64,000 bases of DNA from Octopus vulgaris (taxonomy: Eukaryota): NCBI GenBank assembly GCA_951406725.2, contig OX597830.1, positions 26,846,001 through 26,910,000 on the forward strand. The letters are read 5' to 3'. A program made the translations under genes and the position numbers. The notes under the pieces are model-generated. The model was not told the origin of the DNA, made no database searches, and worked only from the letters and a program-made list of their open reading frames with translations. Below, one piece after another: positions 27,792 through 59,512 of the stretch; position 1 is the stretch's first letter, and each line of letters starts with the position of its first letter.

Positions 27792-29039
27792 AAGAAGAAG
27801 AAGAAGAAGAAGAAGAAGAAGAAGAAGAAGACAGCAGCATCAGGAGCAACAACAACAGCCCCAGTAACAACAACAACATCACCACTACCAACAATAACAA
27901 GAGAAACAACAACAACATCGTCACCGCCGCCATCACCACCGCCGCAACCACCACCACCACCACCACCACCACCACCACCACCACCACCACCACCACCAAT
28001 GACAACAACAACAACAACAGTTCCAGCAACAGCAATAACAACAGCGTCAACCATAACCAGCAGCAACGACAGCCGTTCAAGAATTTGAACCTGGAGATCT
28101 CCATTTCCAGCGACTTCGAGGGCCACCTCCCAGTGGTGTCGGGCTCAACGAAGAGCCCTCGACTACAACAAGACGACCAAAGTGTTTTTTTCCCAAGGTC
28201 TGGGGTCTCCCGCTCCAAAGCCCTAGACCATCACCTAATCACCCTGACCCGTCTTGTTGCTTTACAACAACAACAACAACAACAACGACAACCGCAACAT
28301 TGATGGTGTCATTGTCAACAGTCTAAGAAAATCTGGAAACGGCCAATGGTCATGCTCTTTCCTCCAGACACCCGTCGCTCTCCAAAAACTGACAGCAGCA
28401 ACACCACCAACAGCATCACCAGTAATAACAATAGCAGTAAGAAAAAGAAAAAAACAGCAATGGCGGCAACGGCAAGAATTAAACTCATGTTGATAAATGA
28501 CTAGCTTTCTAAGTTGTTGCTGTTATTTAGCTGAAAGGCGGCTCTGGTTGAACAGACCTTCAAATCAAGTATGCTCTAACCGTGACCTCCCTTCCCTTCC
28601 CTTCCATCCCATCTTTTGTTCAGACGGTATGATTTTAGACTATATTATCAAATGTTTCCTTCTTGAAAACGGTAGTGATTTGTGCGATATTTGGAGGTCA
28701 TTTCTTGGTGATCAATAAACCACGCCGAGTTTTTCTACGTTAATTATGATTTTCAACGCCACTGACTGTTCCCCAATGTATAAAATTATTCTTGAAATAA
28801 AAGAAGACACAGAAATCGTTAAATTTAACCCGAATACCCTGTATCCGACAGTCTTCTTTCAGTTTCCGTTTACCAAATCCACTCACAAGGCCTTGATTGG
28901 CCCGGGAGCAGGAGGGACTATAGTAGAAGACAGTTGTCCAAGGTGCTGGACAGTGGACATAAACCTAAGACTATATTATTGGGAAGCAAGCCTTTTGACT
29001 ACACAATCACGCCTGCAACTAAATAAGAAATATCACTCT

Positions 29040-29452
29040 CTTTTACTCTTTTACTCTATTACTTGTTTCAGTCATTTGACTGCGGCCATGCTGGAGCACC
29101 GCCTTTAATCGAGCAAATCGACCCCGGGACTTATTCTTTTGTAAGCCCAGTACTTATTCTATCGGTCCCTTTTGCCGAACCGCTAAGTAACGGGGACATA
29201 AACACACCAGCATCGGTTGTCAAGCAATGCTAGGGGGACAAACACAGACACACAAACACACACACGCATATATATATATACATATATACGACGGGCTTCT
29301 TTCAGTTTCCGTCTACCAAATCCACTCACAAGGCATTGGTCGGCCCGAGGCTATAGTAGAAGACACTTGCCCAAGGTGCCACGCAGTGGGACTGAACCCA
29401 GAACCATGTGGTTGGTAAACAAGCTACTTACCACACAGCCACTGCTGCGCCT
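29040..29452 (-). mobile_element. CORE-type SINE family A (a partial copy lies at 28850-29020)
   Basis: Reverse complement of 25214-25650. Confidence 0.9.
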
Positions 29453-29722: not shown

Positions 29723-29863
29723 TCATTTGTCTTTCATATCTCACGTTTATTTTTCTCTTCAAATTTACGCACAGCTAATAATTCATGTGTGTGTATGTGT
29801 GAATGTGCGTGTGCTCGCGTGCATATATCTTTGTGTGTGTGTGTGTAAATATATATATGCATA

Positions 29864-29930
<67 letters not shown>

Positions 29931-30341
29931 GAGACTAGTCCCTTTTAGAGAGATTTAGAAATATTAATATTTCGAAAGCCATTTTGGATGTATTCCACTG
30001 AATATAAATAAATAAACCTTCGAACAGACGGTCAGCAGCGACGCCCGCTGGGTTCGGCTACTCCACATTGATAAGGGGCAAATACCCCGAAACTAGTCTG
30101 TGGTTGTTGAACCAGCAAGGGGAAGCTGCTGACCTTCCTTGTTCGAAGGTTATAATGAACACGGTTTGTGTGTCACAGTTTGTGTGTCACGGTTTGTGTG
30201 TCATTTGTCTTTCATATCTCACGTTTATTTTTCTCTTCAAATTTACGCACAGCTAATAATTCATGTGTGTGTATGTGTGAATGTGCGTGTGCTCGCGTGC
30301 ATATATCTTTGTGTGTGTGTGTGTAAATATATATATGCATA

Positions 30342-30392
<51 letters not shown>
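29723..30392 (+). mobile_element. Partial-tandem HHR element (retrozyme/pLTR-like), ~478-bp period
   Basis: A ~150-bp block plus (TA)n is repeated at 29723 and 30201, flanking a hairpin that carries an HHR. Confidence 0.65.
30063..30103 (+). ncRNA. Minimal type I hammerhead ribozyme, U3-A8 core variant
   Basis: CCACA-TTGATAA-GGGG caaata CCCC-GAAA-CTAG-TC-TGTGG: perfect stems I and II, palindromic stem III, GUC site. Confidence 0.85.
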
Positions 30393-30396
<4 letters not shown>

Positions 30397-30542
30397 AGGG
30401 CGATGGCCTCTTGGAGCTAATCAACGGCAGCATTCGTCCTATTTTCCATGTTAGCTTGGCGATAACTATATATATATATATAAGTATGTATGTATGTGTG
30501 TATGTATGTATGTTTGTATGTATGTATGTATGTATATATATG

Positions 30543-31051: not shown

Positions 31052-31563
<512 letters not shown>

Positions 31564-38439: not shown

Positions 38440-38675
38440 TATATATATCTGTAAATGTAAAATGTGACAATTATTCGCTAGCCAAGATAAAACTCCGATT
38501 TTCGGATGCCGAGGTGGAAATCCACGCCACCATCTCTTAAGTTATCCGGCCATCCGAAACTCGGAGTTTTATCTTGGCTACCGAATAATTGTCACATATT
38601 ACATTTACAGATAAATTCCTCTATTTACATAATATCGAGGTCCCTTTCTTTCTTTTGTTATCTTACCGTTTTTAT

Positions 38676-38680: not shown

Positions 38681-38747
<67 letters not shown>

Positions 38748-38876
38748 TAAAAAGAATTCCAACCTTGTCTGATTTTCACGTTTTATTTACAATCTTATAA
38801 TGATATATTATAAGATAATATATTATAATTGAATAAAATAAAATGAAATAGTAGAATGTTAAATATTCATTCTGAT

Positions 38877-38921
38877 TGAACTAGTACTTTCATGCATTGA
38901 ATTCTGCAATCTTCGGGTTCA
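38877..38921 (-). ncRNA. Minimal type I HHR in the PLE 3' region (CCGAAGA core)
   Basis: TGAAC-CCGAAGA-TTGCA gaattcaa TGCAT-GAAA-GTAC-TA-GTTCA; stem I TGAAC/GTTCA, palindromic AGTACT. Confidence 0.75.
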
Positions 38922-38957
38922 TGTAGTAGTGTTGACAGTCATGCTTCACAATTTTTG

Positions 38958-39098
38958 ACTGTAGCAAGATGAGTGATTCTGTGCTATAAATACAGCTGGG
39001 TAGGCTCCAGAGTGCTAGGTTTTGCAAACCGTATTCTGACCAATCAGTGTGTAGTATCACTCAATTACTTAAGCTGATTGGTTGGTTGAGCTGATTGG
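38958..39098 (-). promoter_or_regulatory. Putative pLTR promoter (3 CCAAT boxes, TATA-like box, Inr-like CAGT)
   Basis: CCAAT/ATTGG at 39040, 39077 and 39094; TATAAATA at 38985-38992; CAGT ~31 nt downstream on the minus strand, just before the HHR. Confidence 0.4.
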
Positions 39099-39415
39099 TT
39101 TAGGCATCACGCTTTGTTGGACAGGTCAAGAGTCCTGTATCTTGACCCTGGCCGAAGCAGCAATTGTTGGGTTATTTTTAGAAATGTTGTAAATATCCTT
39201 TGTCAGAGATTTTTATATTTTTATATTTCAATTGTCATCATCATCATTGTCAGCACCTTAATTATTGTTGCTAGTGGTGATGGTGGTGGCAATAAAACTT
39301 TTAACCCTAAATAAGATAATTTTCCTGCTATCTTCGTCTTGATCACCTTTAGTATTGTTGTTGTTGTTAGTGGTCATGGTCGTAGCAGTGGAAGTAATAC
39401 CTCTAAGTATTATTA

Positions 39416-41743
39416 TTATTGCTTATTTAGCTTGGGTTCGAATTTATCAATAAAATTCTTTTCTCTGATTTTCCTCTCGATTTCACTTGGGCTGTGTAAT
39501 TTGTAGAATGGAAATATTATATATATTTTCCGACCACATGTTGCTAGGTGGTTACTCAAAGGTATCTGACGGACCTCTGGGTCTCTAATCTGTTGCCGGT
39601 GTACACGTGAGCGTTCTAATAGTGCGTTTCCCGTCTGACCTACATATATTTCTTCACAATTTGGGCATTTGATGCAGTAAATTAAATTTCTGCTTTTGCA
39701 GTTCATATTCGCGTTTGTGAATATTTTCCCGGTTTTTGTGTTTATATATTGACCGGTATGTATGAATTGGCATGTGCCACATCGGCTATCATTGCATTTA
39801 GATACCGTGAATGTTTGGTCTTTGTTGCTGAGGTCAAATTTTGCCTTTGTTAGTAATGTTTTCAAGTTTTTAGGCTGTCTTTTACTAAGCACCATAGCTC
39901 GATCCTTGATTATGTCTTTTAATTCATTACTTTGGGCAATGATTGGTAGGTTTGCTTTGGCAATGTTGAAGATATTCTGGTGACATGGGTTGTGTGTCAC
40001 TATGAATGGTATTACTTGTTCTTGTTTTCCTCTTCCTTGGGTTGTCCTAAGTTGTTGTATAGGTATTTTTATAGCCCGCTGTATGCCATTTTCTATAAGT
40101 AGAGATGGGTATTTTTGTTTGAGCAAAAATTCTCTTAGTTCTATTAGGCGTTTGTTCCTGATATTTGCATCTTCTACAATAGTACAAATTCTTCTGGCTA
40201 GGCAGTATGGGATGTTACGTTTTGTATGTGGTGGATGGCACGACTTAAAATTTAGGTATTGATGTGTGTCTGTGTGTTTATAGTATATATCTGTGGTGAT
40301 GGTGGTGTCTTTTTTAATTACCATTATATCCAGGAATGGTAATTTGGTACTACTCATCTCCTTTGTAAATTTGAGAGATGGGTGTAGGTTGTTCAAGAGG
40401 ATATTGAACTCTTCCAGAGTATTTAGAGATTCTGTCCAGATTATGAAACAGTCGTCTAGGTATCTCTTCCATGTCTTTTCAATATACTTTCTAAATCCAG
40501 TGCCATAGTTTACCTCCACCTCTTGGTAGAGTTGTTCTTCTAAGTATCCCATTACAGAGTTGGCGTAAACGGGAGCAAACCTCGTTCCCATCGCCGTGCC
40601 TCTAATTTGGATGTAATTCTTTCCATTGAAGAAGAATGTGTTATTTTCTAGAATAAGTTTGACTGTGTCTAATATAAATGGCACTGTGAATCTGCTGGGA
40701 ATCACTTCTCTATGTTTTTCTAACCAGTATTTAATCGCCTTTATTCCTAAATCGTGTGGAATATTGGTGTAGAGGCTTACCACATCAAAACTTAGTAAAA
40801 CTGAATTTGTTTCTGTTGTTTTGGGAAGATGGGACAGGAAGTCGATGTCATCCCTGATGAAACTTGGTATGTAAGTACATAGTGGTTTCAAAACAATGTC
40901 AATAAAATTGCTTAGACGGTGTGTAGGGCATGCTGGACCAGCTATAATAGGTCTAAGTTTTAGGTCTTTTGGATGTAATAATTTTATGTACTCACTTTCT
41001 TGTTCTTTTACTGCCTGTTGAATGTTTTTTGATTTGTGTATTTTTGGTAAGCCGTAGAAGTTGCTGGGTTTTGGTTCAAAATTGGTGATGTAGTCTTTTT
41101 CATTATCCGTAAGTGAGTTGTGGTGTGTTGAAATCAGGTTGTTGATCTTTTTCATGATGTGGTGGTCTATATTTGCGGGTATTTCACAATAGAAGGTTGT
41201 ATCCTTCAGTTGGTCTTCAACCAAATCCTTATAGTATTCGGTATCCATAATAACAATTGCACCACCTTTATCTGCTTGTTTAATTATTATTGTTTGATCG
41301 TTTTGTATACGTTTACATGCAGACATCTCTGATTTGCTAATGTTTGGCCTAACATTGGTATTGCGTCTAAGGGGAAATTTAGACAGGATATCAATGTATT
41401 GGTCAAGGTAGTTATTTCTTCCTTTTGGTGGGGTGAAATTTGATTTATTCCTTACTAGGGATTCATCAATCTCATTACTTTTGTTAGCGAAGAATTCTAC
41501 AAGTCGTAATTTTCGACAGAATTTTTGGATATCCTCCTTTAATTCTTGGTGGTTGGCTGTTGGTGTAGGTGTGAATTTCAGTCCTTTTGACAGAAGTTGG
41601 ATTTCATCATTGTCAAGATCTCTTTTTGATAAATTAATTATTTTAGGATCTATACGTTCAGTTGTTTGGGGTATGTTTCCTCTTGGATTTTTTCTTTCTC
41701 CGGTGTTTGTTGTCCTGACGTAAAAAAATGGATTTTTTTCTGG
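39416..41743 (-). CDS. PLE reverse transcriptase + GIY-YIG endonuclease (775-aa open frame; first Met at 41326)
   Basis: IINLSK..LLSKGLKFTPTP, ADKG, FYGLPKIHK, RPII, SFDVVSLYTNIP, GTAMG, RYLDD, LPFLD, Cys linker CNDSRCGTC, NLIY-CIKCPNC-YVGQT, H..H, EPKLN. Confidence 0.95.
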   Translation of the reverse strand, partial: PEKNPFFYVRTTNTGERKNPRGNIPQTTERIDPKIINLSKRDLDNDEIQLLSKGLKFTPTPTANHQELKEDIQKFCRKLRLVEFFANKSNEIDESLVRNKSNFTPPKGRNNYLDQYIDILSKFPLRRNTNVRPNISKSEMSACKRIQNDQTIIIKQADKGGAIVIMDTEYYKDLVEDQLKDTTFYCEIPANIDHHIMKKINNLISTHHNSLTDNEKDYITNFEPKPSNFYGLPKIHKSKNIQQAVKEQESEYIKLLHPKDLKLRPIIAGPACPTHRLSNFIDIVLKPLCTYIPSFIRDDIDFLSHLPKTTETNSVLLSFDVVSLYTNIPHDLGIKAIKYWLEKHREVIPSRFTVPFILDTVKLILENNTFFFNGKNYIQIRGTAMGTRFAPVYANSVMGYLEEQLYQEVEVNYGTGFRKYIEKTWKRYLDDCFIIWTESLNTLEEFNILLNNLHPSLKFTKEMSSTKLPFLDIMVIKKDTTITTDIYYKHTDTHQYLNFKSCHPPHTKRNIPYCLARRICTIVEDANIRNKRLIELREFLLKQKYPSLLIENGIQRAIKIPIQQLRTTQGRGKQEQVIPFIVTHNPCHQNIFNIAKANLPIIAQSNELKDIIKDRAMVLSKRQPKNLKTLLTKAKFDLSNKDQTFTVSKCNDSRCGTCQFIHTGQYINTKTGKIFTNANMNCKSRNLIYCIKCPNCEEIYVGQTGNALLERSRVHRQQIRDPEVRQIPLSNHLATCGRKIYIIFPFYKLHSPSEIERKIREKNFIDKFEPKLNKQ

Positions 41744-42942
41744 TTATGATTCATATTCCTGTTGATGTTTGCTTGATGAATTTTGCGTTTTGGTTGTGGT
41801 ACTTTACTTGGTTTCGTTATGTTTTCTGTCTTGTTTTTGGTATTATGTATGCTACTTTTCAATTTCTTGTTAGCATTGTTTTTAACCACCTGGAGAAATG
41901 ATCTGGGTTTACTTCTAGATCTAGATCGGTTTTTTGTCCAGTTTCTTGTGGGTAATCTCTGTTGAGGTCTTGAAAATGATCTCCTGTTATTTCTACTGCT
42001 AATGGTCTGTTCAAAACAATATCTATTTTGTTTGTGCTTTTTGTTCATGTTGTGTGCATTAGGGTGTTTGCATACAAAATGGGAAGAGTTCTTACCGTAG
42101 TTCGTCTTCGATTCGTGGTGAAACGGGTGTTCATGTTGCCACGTGTTCTGGTGTATGTTGCGTTGGTGAGGTTGTCCACTTTTAATGCTATTTCTCGGAG
42201 TTCTGGTGTCTTTACCGTAATTTGTAGCATATTTGTCGAGAAATAATTGTTTCCGCTGCCAAAACTTTCTTGATCTGCTTTCTTCTTTTGAGATATCTCT
42301 GATCCATAGTTCTCGCATTTTTTCTGCTATATTGCCGGTCGTTAGTTTGGATATTTCATCTCTGATTTGATCATCGATAGCTTCGTATTTGGCTTTGTAG
42401 CGGGATTGTTTAGACAGGGTAATGGAGATGTCGGTCCTGAATTTTATCAAACTAAGGTCCCATCGAAGTTTAGTTTCTTCCTCTGGTTCTCCTGCAATTT
42501 CTTTAATTAGGTACTTCCGAGGAAGTATGGGTGCCGCTAAAGATATCCATTTCGAATGTATTTCAGCATATTTTTCGCATTTATATGCCTTCCAGAAGTT
42601 TTGTTTTCTTATGTTAAGGAGTTTTTTCCATGTCTTCTGTATCTCTTCTCTTTTTCGGTGTGCCTCTTTTTCCAGATTTCTTTCGTTTATTTCTGACATC
42701 CAAGGAGGTTGTGGTAGGCTTTCTCTTGTAGATTTTATAATTGTTGGTATCATTTCAGCTAAATTCTTAATTTCAGAGTTTATGTGTTCATTTCCAAGTT
42801 TTCCGTCTGTAGACTGTTTTTCTATTTCCTTTAAAATAGAGGATTGTGTGTCAATCATCGTGATGAGTGTTGATAATTTCGATGAAATTTCCATTAGAAT
42901 TCTTTCGGATTCTGTTAATTTTGTTTGTTGCTTTCCAGACAT
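41650..42942 (-). CDS. PLE ORF1: helical/coiled-coil protein with basic R/S/K/N-rich C-terminus (430 aa)
   Basis: Uninterrupted 430-aa ORF, co-oriented with and overlapping the RT frame. Heptad-like K/E/L segments, RKQNFW and LPRKY motifs, RSRSRS tract. Confidence 0.8.
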   Translation of the reverse strand: MSGKQQTKLTESERILMEISSKLSTLITMIDTQSSILKEIEKQSTDGKLGNEHINSEIKNLAEMIPTIIKSTRESLPQPPWMSEINERNLEKEAHRKREEIQKTWKKLLNIRKQNFWKAYKCEKYAEIHSKWISLAAPILPRKYLIKEIAGEPEEETKLRWDLSLIKFRTDISITLSKQSRYKAKYEAIDDQIRDEISKLTTGNIAEKMRELWIRDISKEESRSRKFWQRKQLFLDKYATNYGKDTRTPRNSIKSGQPHQRNIHQNTWQHEHPFHHESKTNYGKNSSHFVCKHPNAHNMNKKHKQNRYCFEQTISSRNNRRSFSRPQQRLPTRNWTKNRSRSRSKPRSFLQVVKNNANKKLKSSIHNTKNKTENITKPSKVPQPKRKIHQANINRNMNHNQKKIHFFTSGQQTPEKEKIQEETYPKQLNV

Positions 42943-42969
42943 GTCTATTGTCTATATATATATATATAT

Positions 42970-43271
42970 GCTATGGGAGAGCAATGCCTGCCATCGCCAC
43001 AGATGGAGGAAGCAGGTTAAGGAGGGGTCGACACTTCTGAGAGATCACATATTCTGCATGAAGAATTTAAGTGTCCTGCTCGAAAGCGAACTGCTGATGT
43101 AGTGAATGGGGAAAGCTTGGTTTGCAATGTTTGCAGTCGTGTATGCTTGTCAAGAGCAGGGCTCATTAGCCACCAACGGGGCCGCAAATGCAAAATATAA
43201 GTTAGTCCTAGAAAGCACAAAGGTCATGAAGGTCAGCAATAGTCTTCCTCGGTCACAAGTGGACGGCCAGA

Positions 43272-43278
<7 letters not shown>
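42970..43278 (+). mobile_element. 5'-truncated RTE-clade LINE 3' end inserted in (TA)n
   Basis: RHRWRKQVKEG, then LVCNVCSRVCLSRAGLISHQR zinc finger; short 3' UTR ending ACCATCAT. Confidence 0.7.
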
Positions 43279-43300
<22 letters not shown>

Positions 43301-43311
<11 letters not shown>

Positions 43312-43650
43312 TAAATTAGAGACAAAACCACTATTAGGCAAATCAAACAATGAAAAACTTAAGCCAATACATATTATTTAATTTATATTATTTAAATATA
43401 TAACAAAATTATTAAAAAAATATAATTAATATCACACTAATTATATTTTTTTAATAATTTTGTTATATATTTAAATAATATAAATTAAATAATATTATGT
43501 ATTGGCTTAAGTTTTTCATTGTTTGATTTGCCTAATAGTGGTTTTGTCTCTAATTTAATATAATATAATATTTTACTATAAAATTGGATTCAATCCTAAA
43601 TCTGATTTTTCCCTGTAAGTTTGGATTTATTCCCTAATATTTATTATATA
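43301..43650. repeat. Near-perfect palindrome (~130-bp arms) plus tail between (TA)n tracts
   Basis: 43301-43428 is inverted at 43438-43568; the tail TTTTTCCCTGTAAGTTTGGA is shared with 48316. Confidence 0.9.
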
Positions 43651-56748: not shown

Positions 56749-58764
56749 CTATTCCTTACCGTGTTCTGAAGTATTTTCGTTTCCTTTATCACAATTGTTA
56801 GTATTGCTATTATTAACATTTTTATCACCAACACCTTTTGTTTCTTCATTATAAACTCCTTTCTGGAAACTTCGACATGCAGGGAAATTGTCAGGGATTT
56901 TTGGTAAGTGGGCATAAGATTCATTTAGAACCAGTGCCATTCCGTCCTTACTGTGTAATTCAATATGGCAGTGCATGATCCATATTCCAGGATTATTGGC
57001 CACTATTCTCACTACAACGTATCCACCTGTAGGGACCATAATTGTATCCTTTTGAGGGGCTTTTTGTAAATTCATTCCGGGGATGTTGTCTCCTTCCCAG
57101 TTGCTGTTTGACCAAGCCGCATCATTACAATAGTTCATTTTCGGATCACCTCTGCAATCAATATCTGTAGTATCATTTATTATTTCTCCCGTTGTTTCAT
57201 TGTATTTTGGAAACCCCATTTTAACTACATAAAATGAATGTCCATGCATGTGTATAGGGTGGGAGAACCCTTTACCTTTTCCAAGATTTGTCATTACAAC
57301 TTGAATTGTATCACCATATTTCAGGTTTATAGAATAAGTACACCGACACACTTTATCAACACCGCAGTTGGCATTATCACACAGACTATCTATTTCTTTT
57401 GGTTGTGTTAAAGGGTTTACCGTGGGTTCCACGAACACACGACCATTTACTGATGCTGGTGTGTATCCTGGCTCACCAGGAAAAGCAAAATTTAAAAAAT
57501 ATTCTTCAAACTTCCCAGACTTGTATGGAGGTACAACAACAGGGTAATCAGGTTCCAAGTCATTAAACTGTAAACACCGTTTATTACTTTTCTCGGGATA
57601 ATAAAGAAAGGGGCAGTTGAGTAAAGTGCAGTCCTTTTGTTGAACGCAGTCAGAAACCGTGGAGTTGGGTTCTTCGTCCAGTGCACCCTTATAACGAAGA
57701 ATTACTTCAAATGTGTTATTTTTTTCATTTTCCATTGTTTTTCCACGAATCCAATAATTTCCGACAGAGTTATTTGCCTTCAATATAAAGTCAAATCTCT
57801 CACCCGGACTGAGGATGAAATAATCAACAGCTGTTGGTTTTAGGTCAAAACCATCAGAGGCAACGACTACCATCTGGTGACCATCAACAGACACTTCAAA
57901 CGGGTAAAGGGACCCTGCGGCGATCACTCTAAAACGATACTCTTTACCTTGTTCTACTTCAAAGACAGTCAGTGGAGCCCCATTATGATTCCCTGATTCA
58001 TCATAATAGCGGCCTCGACCATTCACAATACCAGAATGGAAATTAAAAAGACTAAAAAATGCCCCATCTAGAGATTTGGAATTGCCAATGTTTGTACGGT
58101 TCCAATAGAGTCCAAAATCCATTTTTAAATAACTCACATCGGAGTCCCAGTTATGGTTGTAGTCTGTTATTAACATCACATGTTCTTCCATTTTACGTTT
58201 TGTCTTTTCGTGTATTATAAAACCACCAAATAGTCCCATCGTACGTTGTGTCCCAAGATGAGAATGGTACCAAAAGGTTCCAGTTTGTGTAACATTGAAT
58301 TCATATCTGAACGACTGACCTGGTTGAATTGGACACTGTGAAACCCAGGGTACGCCATCCATATGAGGTGTTCCTTTTTGATGAATGCCGTGCCAATGTA
58401 TTGTTGTAGATTCTGAAAATAATCGGTTTTCTACTTCAATGATGACTCTTTGTCCTTTATAAACTTCTATCGTTGGTCCAGGAACTGTGCCATTAACTGC
58501 AATCACCATAACTGTCTCAGAGAAACCATCCATAGTAATAACTTCATCAGTTGGTATCGGTTGAGCATCCGTAAAATTAGTGACGTCATATCTGTAGAGT
58601 TTTCTATTATAGGGTAGTACCAAAGTCTTATTAACTAACATAGTTAATTTATAGGAAATTACCAGCTTAAACTCACATTCGTCGTCTTCCATACGACAAC
58701 CATGAGAATAAACTAATGGTGATAAGAGACCCAGGAGGAATACAATTACGTTGAAGTGAATCAT
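56749..58764 (-). CDS. Secreted laccase-like multicopper oxidase (671 aa), single coding exon
   Basis: Signal peptide MIHFNVIVFLLGLLSPLVYS; all four Cu motifs (HWHG, WYHSH, HPIHMHGH, HCHIELHSKDGM with axial Met). ATG at 58764 is preferred over the track's TTG because TTGTTATTTCAG at 58789-58800 looks like a splice acceptor. Confidence 0.95.
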   Translation of the reverse strand: MIHFNVIVFLLGLLSPLVYSHGCRMEDDECEFKLVISYKLTMLVNKTLVLPYNRKLYRYDVTNFTDAQPIPTDEVITMDGFSETVMVIAVNGTVPGPTIEVYKGQRVIIEVENRLFSESTTIHWHGIHQKGTPHMDGVPWVSQCPIQPGQSFRYEFNVTQTGTFWYHSHLGTQRTMGLFGGFIIHEKTKRKMEEHVMLITDYNHNWDSDVSYLKMDFGLYWNRTNIGNSKSLDGAFFSLFNFHSGIVNGRGRYYDESGNHNGAPLTVFEVEQGKEYRFRVIAAGSLYPFEVSVDGHQMVVVASDGFDLKPTAVDYFILSPGERFDFILKANNSVGNYWIRGKTMENEKNNTFEVILRYKGALDEEPNSTVSDCVQQKDCTLLNCPFLYYPEKSNKRCLQFNDLEPDYPVVVPPYKSGKFEEYFLNFAFPGEPGYTPASVNGRVFVEPTVNPLTQPKEIDSLCDNANCGVDKVCRCTYSINLKYGDTIQVVMTNLGKGKGFSHPIHMHGHSFYVVKMGFPKYNETTGEIINDTTDIDCRGDPKMNYCNDAAWSNSNWEGDNIPGMNLQKAPQKDTIMVPTGGYVVVRIVANNPGIWIMHCHIELHSKDGMALVLNESYAHLPKIPDNFPACRSFQKGVYNEETKGVGDKNVNNSNTNNCDKGNENTSEHGKE

Positions 58765-58788
58765 AGTTGAACAAGTGTGAACAGATAT

Positions 58789-58803
58789 CTGAAATAACAA
58801 AAT
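58789..58803 (-). other. 3' splice acceptor of a 5'-UTR intron of the laccase gene
   Basis: TTTTGTTATTTCAG|ATATCTG lies 24 nt upstream of the ATG. Confidence 0.65.
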
Positions 58804-59512
58804 ATAAATATGAGAAACACTGAAATCATCAAATCATCAAGGACGATGTGACAATTAAATCATGAAATATGTGCATGTTTAAAGACGAAAGAACACCAAC
58901 ATATTAAAGAAAAGAAATGAAAATAAAACTCTGTGTGACAGGCAGACGACAGGGAGATCGATATTGTTTTGTTAGTAGGACATTTCAGCTGGAACAAATT
59001 TTAATCAGGAATTGTTAGAAACTTAACAATTCTGGTTAGAGTCTTTTGTTTCTCTGTCCTTTATAGCTTACGAGATGATCTTTGTCAACAGTTGGTGACT
59101 ACCCTCAGGAATTAACGCTGGGAATATCTCAAGTATACCTGCCAAAGCAGAACTACCGGATGAAGAATTAATCCAGTGAGTGTGACTGTGTGATACGGTG
59201 TGGTCCAAGGATCTTAGTAAATCAATAAATATAGATGCCTGAGATTGATTACATAATCTGGTACTAGTTTATTCGCTTTATTCTTGCGGCTATCGTTTAC
59301 TAAGTAAAATATATTTGCAGGAGACAGTTTATTAGTTGGGTATATGTAGTAATGAGGAGACTCTCAAATCCTGATTGATTCATACGAGGTACGCTATTCT
59401 GTCATGGGCATTTTAGATATGACGAAGCCCATCTCACGCAGAACCTGAACACAACTGATTTCTTTCAGAGAAAAATGCTTGTTTCTGTATGTGTGTGTGT
59501 GTGTGTAAGTGT

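What the first reader, a model, noticed from the sequence alone, without database searches (positions are those of the whole stretch)
29723..30392. Variant-core hammerhead (UUGAUAA) at the tip of a long RNA rod, inside a 478-bp partial tandem
Seen: the HHR at 30063-30103 has perfect stems (CCACA/TGTGG, GGGG/CCCC), a palindromic ACTAGT stem III and a GUC site. Its core is TTGATAA, so C3-G8 is replaced by U3-A8. Stem I extends into a ~135-nt rod (AACCTTCGAACA/TGTTCGAAGGTT, GGTCAGCAGC/GCTGCTGACC, GCTGG(G)TTC/GAACCAGC). A ~150-bp block plus (TA)n is directly repeated on either side. Known: positions 3 and 8 form a Watson-Crick pair in the active HHR fold, and minimal type I HHRs act as dimers in PLE pLTRs and non-LTR retrozymes. 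Inference: the compensatory double change implies selection for activity, and the unit may be a retrozyme copied from a circular RNA.
Basis: partly seen in the sequence, partly recalled or inferred. Interest (0 to 1): 0.75.

Follow-up and report, generated by a model that had tools for sequence, protein, structure and literature searches.

The report
Aged Penelope-type hammerhead repeat copy
This is one aged, rearranged copy of an abundant 360-base non-coding jumping repeat that carries a predicted self-cutting RNA and was likely spread by Penelope-type retrotransposon enzymes; the paired swap in its core is real but already published, so the find is mostly ordinary.

Summary
The hammerhead (30063-30103, U3-A8 core) and the 137-nt rod are real (fold z -8.6). 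The 478-bp 'tandem' is not the element's unit. It is about 200 bp of flanking DNA duplicated into a single copy of a dispersed ~355-361-nt ORF-less family (about 2,370 first-look candidates in a 2.8-Gb, probably octopus, genome). Copies show the Penelope-like (PLE) footprint: inverted 5'-truncated partners, two fixed 3' ends ~50 nt apart, AT-rich targets, and runs up to 2.6 units. U3-A8 is fixed in this family (52 of 53 copies). Homologous sister families (60-65% identical) carry C3-G8 or U3·G8, and the rod covaries across them (28 of 42 pairs), so selection on the RNA fold is supported. U3-A8 is already reported in nature, including ~1,300 hits in a PLE-bearing genome (Schistosoma; PMC4209133, PMC3088659). 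Cleavage, circular RNA and an autonomous partner were not shown. This copy has one ribozyme and is probably inert. One lead: in a younger sister family 6 of 47 segments start at the predicted cut; in this family 0 of 46 do. The scan found this class before on other DNA of this genome (e1-9582922, e1-9525137). Verdict: new member of a known kind.

The parts
29724..29926 (.). Original upstream flank: unique AT-rich DNA, (GT)n and the (TA)n tract at the insertion site; source of the duplicated block
   Evidence: No match to the family unit; first 149 nt match 30202-30350 with 1 mismatch
29927..29937 (-). 11-nt inverted 5' piece of the element; it creates the second ACTAGT at 29934
   Evidence: Reverse complement of the unit's first 11 matched bases (blastn row 29937-29897)
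29936..30177 (+). Main body of the element copy (family positions 10-257 of 355)
   Evidence: 12 differences in 240 aligned bases from its subfamily majority
30015..30151 (+). 137-nt RNA rod extending stem I
   Evidence: Fold z -8.61; covariation across sister families
30063..30103 (+). Type I hammerhead with U3-A8 core, 4-bp stem II, 2-bp palindromic stem III; predicted cut after C30098
   Evidence: core conservation; stem I/II covariation
30160..30203 (+). Local triplication of a 14-nt motif at the left breakpoint of the rearrangement
   Evidence: family D16
30202..30398 (.). Duplicated copy of the upstream flank plus (TA)n, inserted into the element in place of about 11 family bases
30399..30475 (+). 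3' piece of the element (family positions ~270-355), ending at the family's main 3' end and followed by (TA)n

Best explanation
This is one 5'-truncated, later rearranged copy of an abundant ~360-nt ORF-less repeat family that carries a predicted type I hammerhead with a U3-A8 core, and that was likely copied into the genome by a Penelope-like reverse transcriptase/endonuclease from a probably circular or multimeric RNA. Shown: the family, its copy structure, the fixed U3-A8 pair, covariation in stems I and II and the rod, and the flank duplication. Inferred: (1) A source locus with two or more units is transcribed. Two hammerheads pair through the ACUAGU palindrome and cut after GUC to release a monomer. 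(2) The rod holds the cut ends together, and a host ligase closes a circle. (3) A PLE protein nicks AT-rich DNA and starts reverse transcription at one of two fixed internal sites ~50 nt apart. This gives the 'end' and 'tail' termini, inverted pairs, and more-than-unit copies. (4) This copy came from the main start site, with an 11-nt inverted partner. Later a local template switch copied ~200 bp of flank into it. With a single ribozyme and a broken unit it probably cannot make a circle.
For: 2,374 first-look candidates, 40 scored, 55 matches on many contigs. 209 exact core-context matches against 0 for the reversed control. Head-to-tail period 361; direct dimers at 361 and 357 bp. Of 74 distinct loci, 41 are inverted pairs, and 19 of those 41 have one 'end' and one 'tail' terminus. 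Of 115 outer 3' ends, 44 fall at positions 340-355 and 40 at 40-59, with 5 more at 0-9 just past the junction. This matches the PLE footprint in PMC8557442 and the two internal RT start sites in PMC11167929. Contiguous runs reach 940 nt in this family and 896 nt in sister family D. U3-A8 is present in 52 of 53 copies not selected on the core. Core non-CpG mismatches number 11 against 23.1 expected from base-matched positions, p about 0.005. Two-sided changes occur in stem I in 19 of 69 copies and in stem II in 16 of 69. Sister families with C3-G8 are 60-65% identical over most of the unit. Across 11 clan representatives 28 of 42 pairs change on both sides, 0 of 500 shuffles reach that, and slid controls give 5-10.
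Against: No autonomous PLE sharing this unit was found. tblastn with the window's PLE protein hit 1 of 103 family loci (L026, a fragment separated from the unit) and 0 of 30, 0 of 5 and 0 of 10 sister-family or candidate loci. The young PLE in the window has no DNA similarity to the unit. No 5' ends of this family fall at the cut site: 0 of 46 segments, and 3 of 125 against 3.2 expected. So there is no genomic trace of cleavage for U3-A8. No long arrays were seen in the loci sampled. More-than-unit copies could come from uncleaved read-through RNA. In vitro, PAc insertion did not need hammerhead cleavage (PMC11167929), and 8 of 9 frog retrozyme dimers did not cleave (10.64898/2026.07.22.740005). 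Covariation counts come from related sequences and reflect few independent events. Only 43 of 115 3' flanks passed my TA-rich criterion.
Confidence: 0.78

Rival explanations
1. The copies are 5'-truncated terminal repeats (pLTR stumps) of an autonomous, now rare or decayed Penelope-like element, not an independent non-autonomous unit.
For: Same insertion footprint and minimal type I hammerhead as PLE pLTRs (PMC4209133, PMC8557442). Most sampled copies are 1 to 1.6 units long.
Against: Upstream of the unit lies another unit, never an ORF, in all long copies. No RT was attached in the loci tested. A candidate pair 5.65 kb apart enclosed ORFs of LINE type, not PLE type (LINE assignment from recalled motifs).
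Confidence: 0.12
2. The element is PLE-mobilised but through linear, uncleaved multimeric transcripts; in this U3-A8 family the hammerhead is slow or protein-dependent and no circle forms.
For: 0 of 46 segment starts at the cut, and all 29 main segments read through it. PAc used unprocessed RNA in vitro (PMC11167929). Stem III has only 2 bp.
Against: Core, palindrome and stems are conserved or covary. Sister family D shows 5' ends at the cut. Mollusc retrozymes of this size form abundant circles (PMC7229834, section 14).
Confidence: 0.25
3. The 478-bp repeat is the functional unit of a local retrozyme tandem.
For: A 98% direct repeat at 478 bp surrounds the ribozyme.
Against: The block matches only this locus among 30 loci. 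It interrupts the family sequence, whose period is 355-361. The two blocks differ at 1 of 149 sites while the element differs from its subfamily at 12 of 311, so the duplication is younger than the insertion.
Confidence: 0.02

Closest known systems
Metazoan non-LTR retrozymes (Cervera and de la Pena 2020, PMC7229834; passages and section 14 read)
   Same: ORF-less unit of 350-390 nt in a mollusc, type I hammerhead with short palindromic helix III, highly self-paired RNA, thousands of copies, co-existence with autonomous PLEs.
   Different: Core is U3-A8 (or U3·G8 in a sister family) rather than C3-G8. Sampled copies are dispersed 1-2.6-mers with inverted partners, not long arrays. Circular RNA and cleavage were not shown here.
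PLE pLTR minimal hammerheads, including the U3-A8 variant of Schistosoma mansoni (Cervera and de la Pena 2014, PMC4209133; parts 1-2 of 4 read)
   Same: Same U3-A8 covariation (about 1,300 hits reported there), palindromic positions around loop 3, predicted dimer action, mostly single scattered motifs.
   Different: Here helix II is 4 bp with no extra base before it, a 2-bp helix III is kept, stem I continues into a 137-nt rod, and no ORF is attached.
EN+ Penelope-like element insertions (PMC8557442, passages; PMC11167929, passages and section 3 part 2)
   Same: Partial tandems, inverted 5'-truncated copies, a tail at one end only, two internal start sites, AT-rich targets.
   Different: No RT/GIY-YIG ORF; tail about 50 nt rather than 30-40; the mobilising partner is unidentified.
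Vertebrate non-LTR retrozymes as non-autonomous PLE derivatives (bioRxiv 10.64898/2026.07.22.740005; parts 1-3 of 5 read)
   Same: Proposes the same PLE dependence; monomers dispersed over chromosomes.
   Different: No mollusc was sampled there. Here the link rests on insertion anatomy, not on sequence homology to a pLTR.
Natural U3-A8 hammerhead cores (Perreault et al. 2011, PMC3088659; passages read)
   Same: C3-G8 covarying to U3-A8 in several natural examples; such covariants are stated there to be active in vitro.
   Different: Those are scattered examples; here the state is fixed in whole repeat families.

Membership tests
Type I hammerhead ribozyme | Core N3-UGAN-N8-A, GAAA, UH, with a Watson-Crick 3-8 pair | tested here: met
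   U3-A8 in 52 of 53 copies. The Rfam models did not hit.
Type I hammerhead ribozyme | Stems I, II and III, supported by covariation | tested here: met
   Stems I and II covary. Stem III is 2 bp, palindromic and nearly invariant.
Type I hammerhead ribozyme | Site-specific self-cleavage after H17 | not testable with these tools
   Indirect only: 0 of 46 starts at the cut in this family; 6 of 47 in sister family D.
Non-LTR retrozyme | ORF-less unit of 150-450 bp with one type I hammerhead per unit | tested here: met
   355-361-nt unit
Non-LTR retrozyme | Head-to-tail tandem copies with two or more ribozymes (family level) | tested here: met
   Dimers L170 and L171; runs of 896-940 nt. No long arrays seen.
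Non-LTR retrozyme | This copy has two consecutive complete hammerheads (the 'active' criterion of the 2026 preprint) | tested here: not met
   One ribozyme, unit interrupted
Non-LTR retrozyme | Expressed as linear and circular monomer RNA | tested here: inconclusive
   Contigs of 3 runs only guessed to be RNA carry family sequence; they give no strand, ends or circle evidence.
PLE-mobilised element | Inverted 5'-truncated partner and tail at one end | tested here: met
   41 of 74 loci inverted; 19 of 41 end+tail
PLE-mobilised element | Sequence shared with the pLTR of an autonomous PLE | tested here: inconclusive
   None found in limited sampling
Autonomous PLE | RT plus GIY-YIG ORF between the repeats | tested here: not met
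   No such ORF at the finding or joined to family loci

The most novel reading that the evidence does not exclude
One genome holds a clan of homologous ~360-nt retrozymes that spread successfully with all three states of the catalytic 3-8 pair (C-G, U·G, U-A) on the same covarying rod. Their insertion breakpoints record in vivo cleavage: the younger U·G/GUU-rich family leaves 5' ends at the cut site while this U-A family never does. Core strength would then be a tuned trait that sets how long the RNA circle stays closed during PLE-driven rolling reverse transcription.
Probability: 0.2. Interest if true: 0.55.

Novelty: new member of a known kind. Interest (0 to 1): 0.22.

Why it matters
As a single locus it matters little: an aged copy of a known element class with a published core variant. 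The clan is a useful natural test set. Homologous units with C3-G8, U3·G8 and U3-A8 cores, each with many copies, allow a direct test of whether hammerhead cleavage matters for PLE-dependent spread. PMC11167929 and PMC8557442 leave that question open. My paper searches found no octopus retrozyme description. The main text of the 2026 Octopus vulgaris repeat annotation has 0 occurrences of 'hammerhead' or 'ribozyme' (its supplement was not read and might list the family).

Tried and rejected
Rfam scan: no hammerhead family among 52 hits. Search for the autonomous partner failed: the window's young PLE has no similarity to the unit (alignment scores 42 and 30 against shuffled maxima 53 and 55); the pair 5.65 kb apart (L169) encloses LINE-type ORFs; the search with the L026 RT fragment did not run because the fragment has stop codons, so that family is unexamined. 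RNA: no RNA holder was listed; contigs laid from guessed-RNA runs cannot show strand, ends or circles. Laying DNA contigs on the locus did not bridge the duplication junctions, so an assembly error in the duplicated block is not excluded. The idea that the rod's arms guide inversion junctions was not supported: 6 of 47 against 2.9 expected. Clustering of 5' ends at the cut was rejected for this family. RNAalifold on 69 decayed copies gave only a weak consensus (-3.46 kcal/mol, 16 pairs), as expected for neutral decay. In one search the cut index for family D was mis-set; the true cut is +22 in that table, corrected by inspection. The tree of 26 natural copies gave three clades but is unrooted, so the direction of the 3-8 change is not shown. 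Two papers I wanted were not held. The sequence look-up and nearby look-up of earlier findings returned nothing.

Full report
Observation. The motif is as described: CCACA, TTGATAA, GGGG-CAAATA-CCCC, GAAA, CTAG, TC, TGTGG at 30063-30103. My descriptor scan of both strands of the window returned only this motif and one other. The rod covers 30015-30151. It folds at -70.7 kcal/mol, z -8.61, with 0 of 200 shuffles as good, and its centroid structure has stems I and II formed and the core open. The flanking direct repeat is real (98%, spacing 478). Rfam did not report a hammerhead among 52 hits to E=5.

What it belongs to. The window lies in a 2.8-Gb genome of 227 contigs. I take it to be an octopus from its size and recalled repeat motifs; earlier scan notes say the same. 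A search with 29928-30165 gave 2,374 first-look candidates, 40 scored, 55 matches. Homology covers 29936-30177 and resumes at 30399-30475, and other loci join these two pieces into a head-to-tail unit of 361 bp. A majority sequence from 71 copies is 355 nt, and copies are 92.5% identical to it on average (range 89-96%). CpG sites are heavily decayed (238 of 1,382 cells). The family is therefore old, and most copies drift neutrally.

The 478-bp repeat. The repeated block is flanking DNA. It matches only this locus among the 30 loci and replaces about 11 family bases. The two blocks differ at 1 of 149 sites, whereas the element differs from its subfamily majority at 12 of 240 plus 0 of 71 sites. 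So the duplication is younger than the insertion. A 14-nt triplication marks its left breakpoint. I infer a local template switch or templated repair. An assembly error is not excluded, because public contigs did not bridge the junctions. The element's 5' junction has an 11-nt inverted piece (29927-29937), which explains the second ACTAGT at 29934.

Insertion anatomy. Among 74 distinct loci, 41 are inverted pairs and 33 are single-orientation. Of 115 outer 3' ends, 44 fall at family positions 340-355 and 40 at 40-59 of the next unit, with 5 more at 0-9. Of the 41 inverted loci, 19 pair one 'end' with one 'tail', 3 pair end with end, and 1 pairs tail with tail. 43 of 115 3' flanks are TA-rich by my criterion. 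PMC8557442 (passages) describes exactly this for PLEs: partial tandems, an inverted 5'-truncated copy, and a tail at one end. PMC11167929 shows that the tail reflects two internal RT start sites and that the endonuclease cuts AT-rich DNA. Direct dimers exist at 361 and 357 bp, and contiguous runs reach 940 nt. I saw no long arrays in the loci fetched, which are a similarity-ranked sample of a few hundred out of thousands.

Is U3-A8 selected? It is a family trait. It occurs in 52 of 53 copies from searches that did not select on the core, and 39 of 53 keep a fully intact core. A pattern that allowed either state gave 209 matches against 0 for the control. Of the first 100 listed, 98 are U3-A8, 1 is C3-A8, 1 is U3-G8 and none is C3-G8. 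Non-CpG core positions carry 11 mismatches against 23.1 expected from base-matched background (p about 0.005). Subfamilies differ by compensatory changes in stem I (C-G to U-A, 19 of 69 copies) and stem II (G-C to A-U, 16 of 69); these are probably one event each. Motifs with the same ACTAGT and a C3-G8 core number 999 (control 26), and U3-A8 motifs number 677 (control 73). Many of the C3-G8 loci are 60-65% identical to this unit over most of its length. Across 11 representatives, 28 of 42 rod and hammerhead pairs change on both sides. No shuffle of 500 reaches that, and slid controls give 5-10. The structure was taken from the window copy, and related sequences inflate such counts. Each of the 11 folds into a rod (z -2.9 to -10). 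A further family, D, has U3·G8 with GUU in 28 cores and U3-A8 in 9. The tree shows three clades, unrooted.

Does it cut? Not tested. In family D (segments about 95% identical to their majority), 6 of 47 segments start within 4 nt of the predicted cut, against 1.2 expected (p 0.001). Four of these junctions are visible directly. The table used a wrong cut index, offset by 22. I noticed the cluster before testing it, and the loci were ranked by length. In the family of this finding there is no such signal: 3 of 125 and 0 of 46, and all 29 main segments read through the site. That fits a ligated circle or an uncleaved precursor equally. RNA evidence is uninformative. Against an essential role for cleavage: PAc insertion in vitro did not need it, and 8 of 9 frog retrozyme dimers did not cleave.

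Partner. Not found. The window holds an intact PLE (775-aa RT plus GIY-YIG ORF), with 104 of 104 scored copies about 100% identical over 400 aa. It shares no sequence with the unit, apart from a similar TATTAAT(AT)n 3' end. tblastn found PLE RT at 1 of 103 family loci and at none of 45 sister or candidate loci.

Comparison and verdict. It works like, and at family level meets the testable criteria of, a metazoan non-LTR retrozyme (PMC7229834), mobilised as proposed in bioRxiv 10.64898/2026.07.22.740005. This copy fails that preprint's two-ribozyme criterion. U3-A8 was reported in nature in PMC3088659 and at about 1,300 sites in Schistosoma in PMC4209133. I found no paper on octopus retrozymes (supplements not read). 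Earlier scan notes report the same class and the same variant elsewhere in this genome; I had reached this reading before opening them. New member of a known kind; interest 0.22.

Noticed in passing
window 38730-43280 (-); ORFs 39416-41743 and 41650-42951: Intact Penelope-like element (RT + GIY-YIG, CX4CxxC linker as in the Neptune type, upstream 433-aa ORF) in a (TA)n target. 104 of 104 scored genomic copies are about 100% identical over 400 aa, so the family is very young. No canonical hammerhead was found in its 3' UTR.
   Followed up: partly
window 53729-53655 (-): Second type I hammerhead with canonical CUGAUGA core, long stem II and 7-bp stem I; a different family.
   Followed up: no
L179-L208 (family D, about 2,240 candidates, 357-nt unit): Younger sister family whose majority core is U3·G8 with a GUU site (28 of 37 cores). 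It has runs up to 896 nt, and 6 of 47 segment starts lie at the predicted cut.
   Followed up: partly
L169:1775-7705: A LINE with endonuclease- and RT-like ORF pieces (L1/Tx1 type by recalled motifs) lies between two 98% identical 235-bp fragments of a family D unit.
   Followed up: no
L134-L163: At least three further hammerhead families with the same ACTAGT stem III but unrelated flanks; two pairs are about 315 bp apart.
   Followed up: no
window 56749-58833 (-): 694-aa uninterrupted multicopper oxidase ORF with three Pfam Cu-oxidase domains.
   Followed up: no
window 43297-43571 and 38443-38616: Two fold-back (self-inverted) repeats, 279 bp at 95% and 177 bp at 79%, flanking the young PLE.
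   Followed up: no
window 29036-29446 and 31170-31563: Two copies (88-94% alike) of a common short interspersed repeat on either side of the finding.
   Followed up: no
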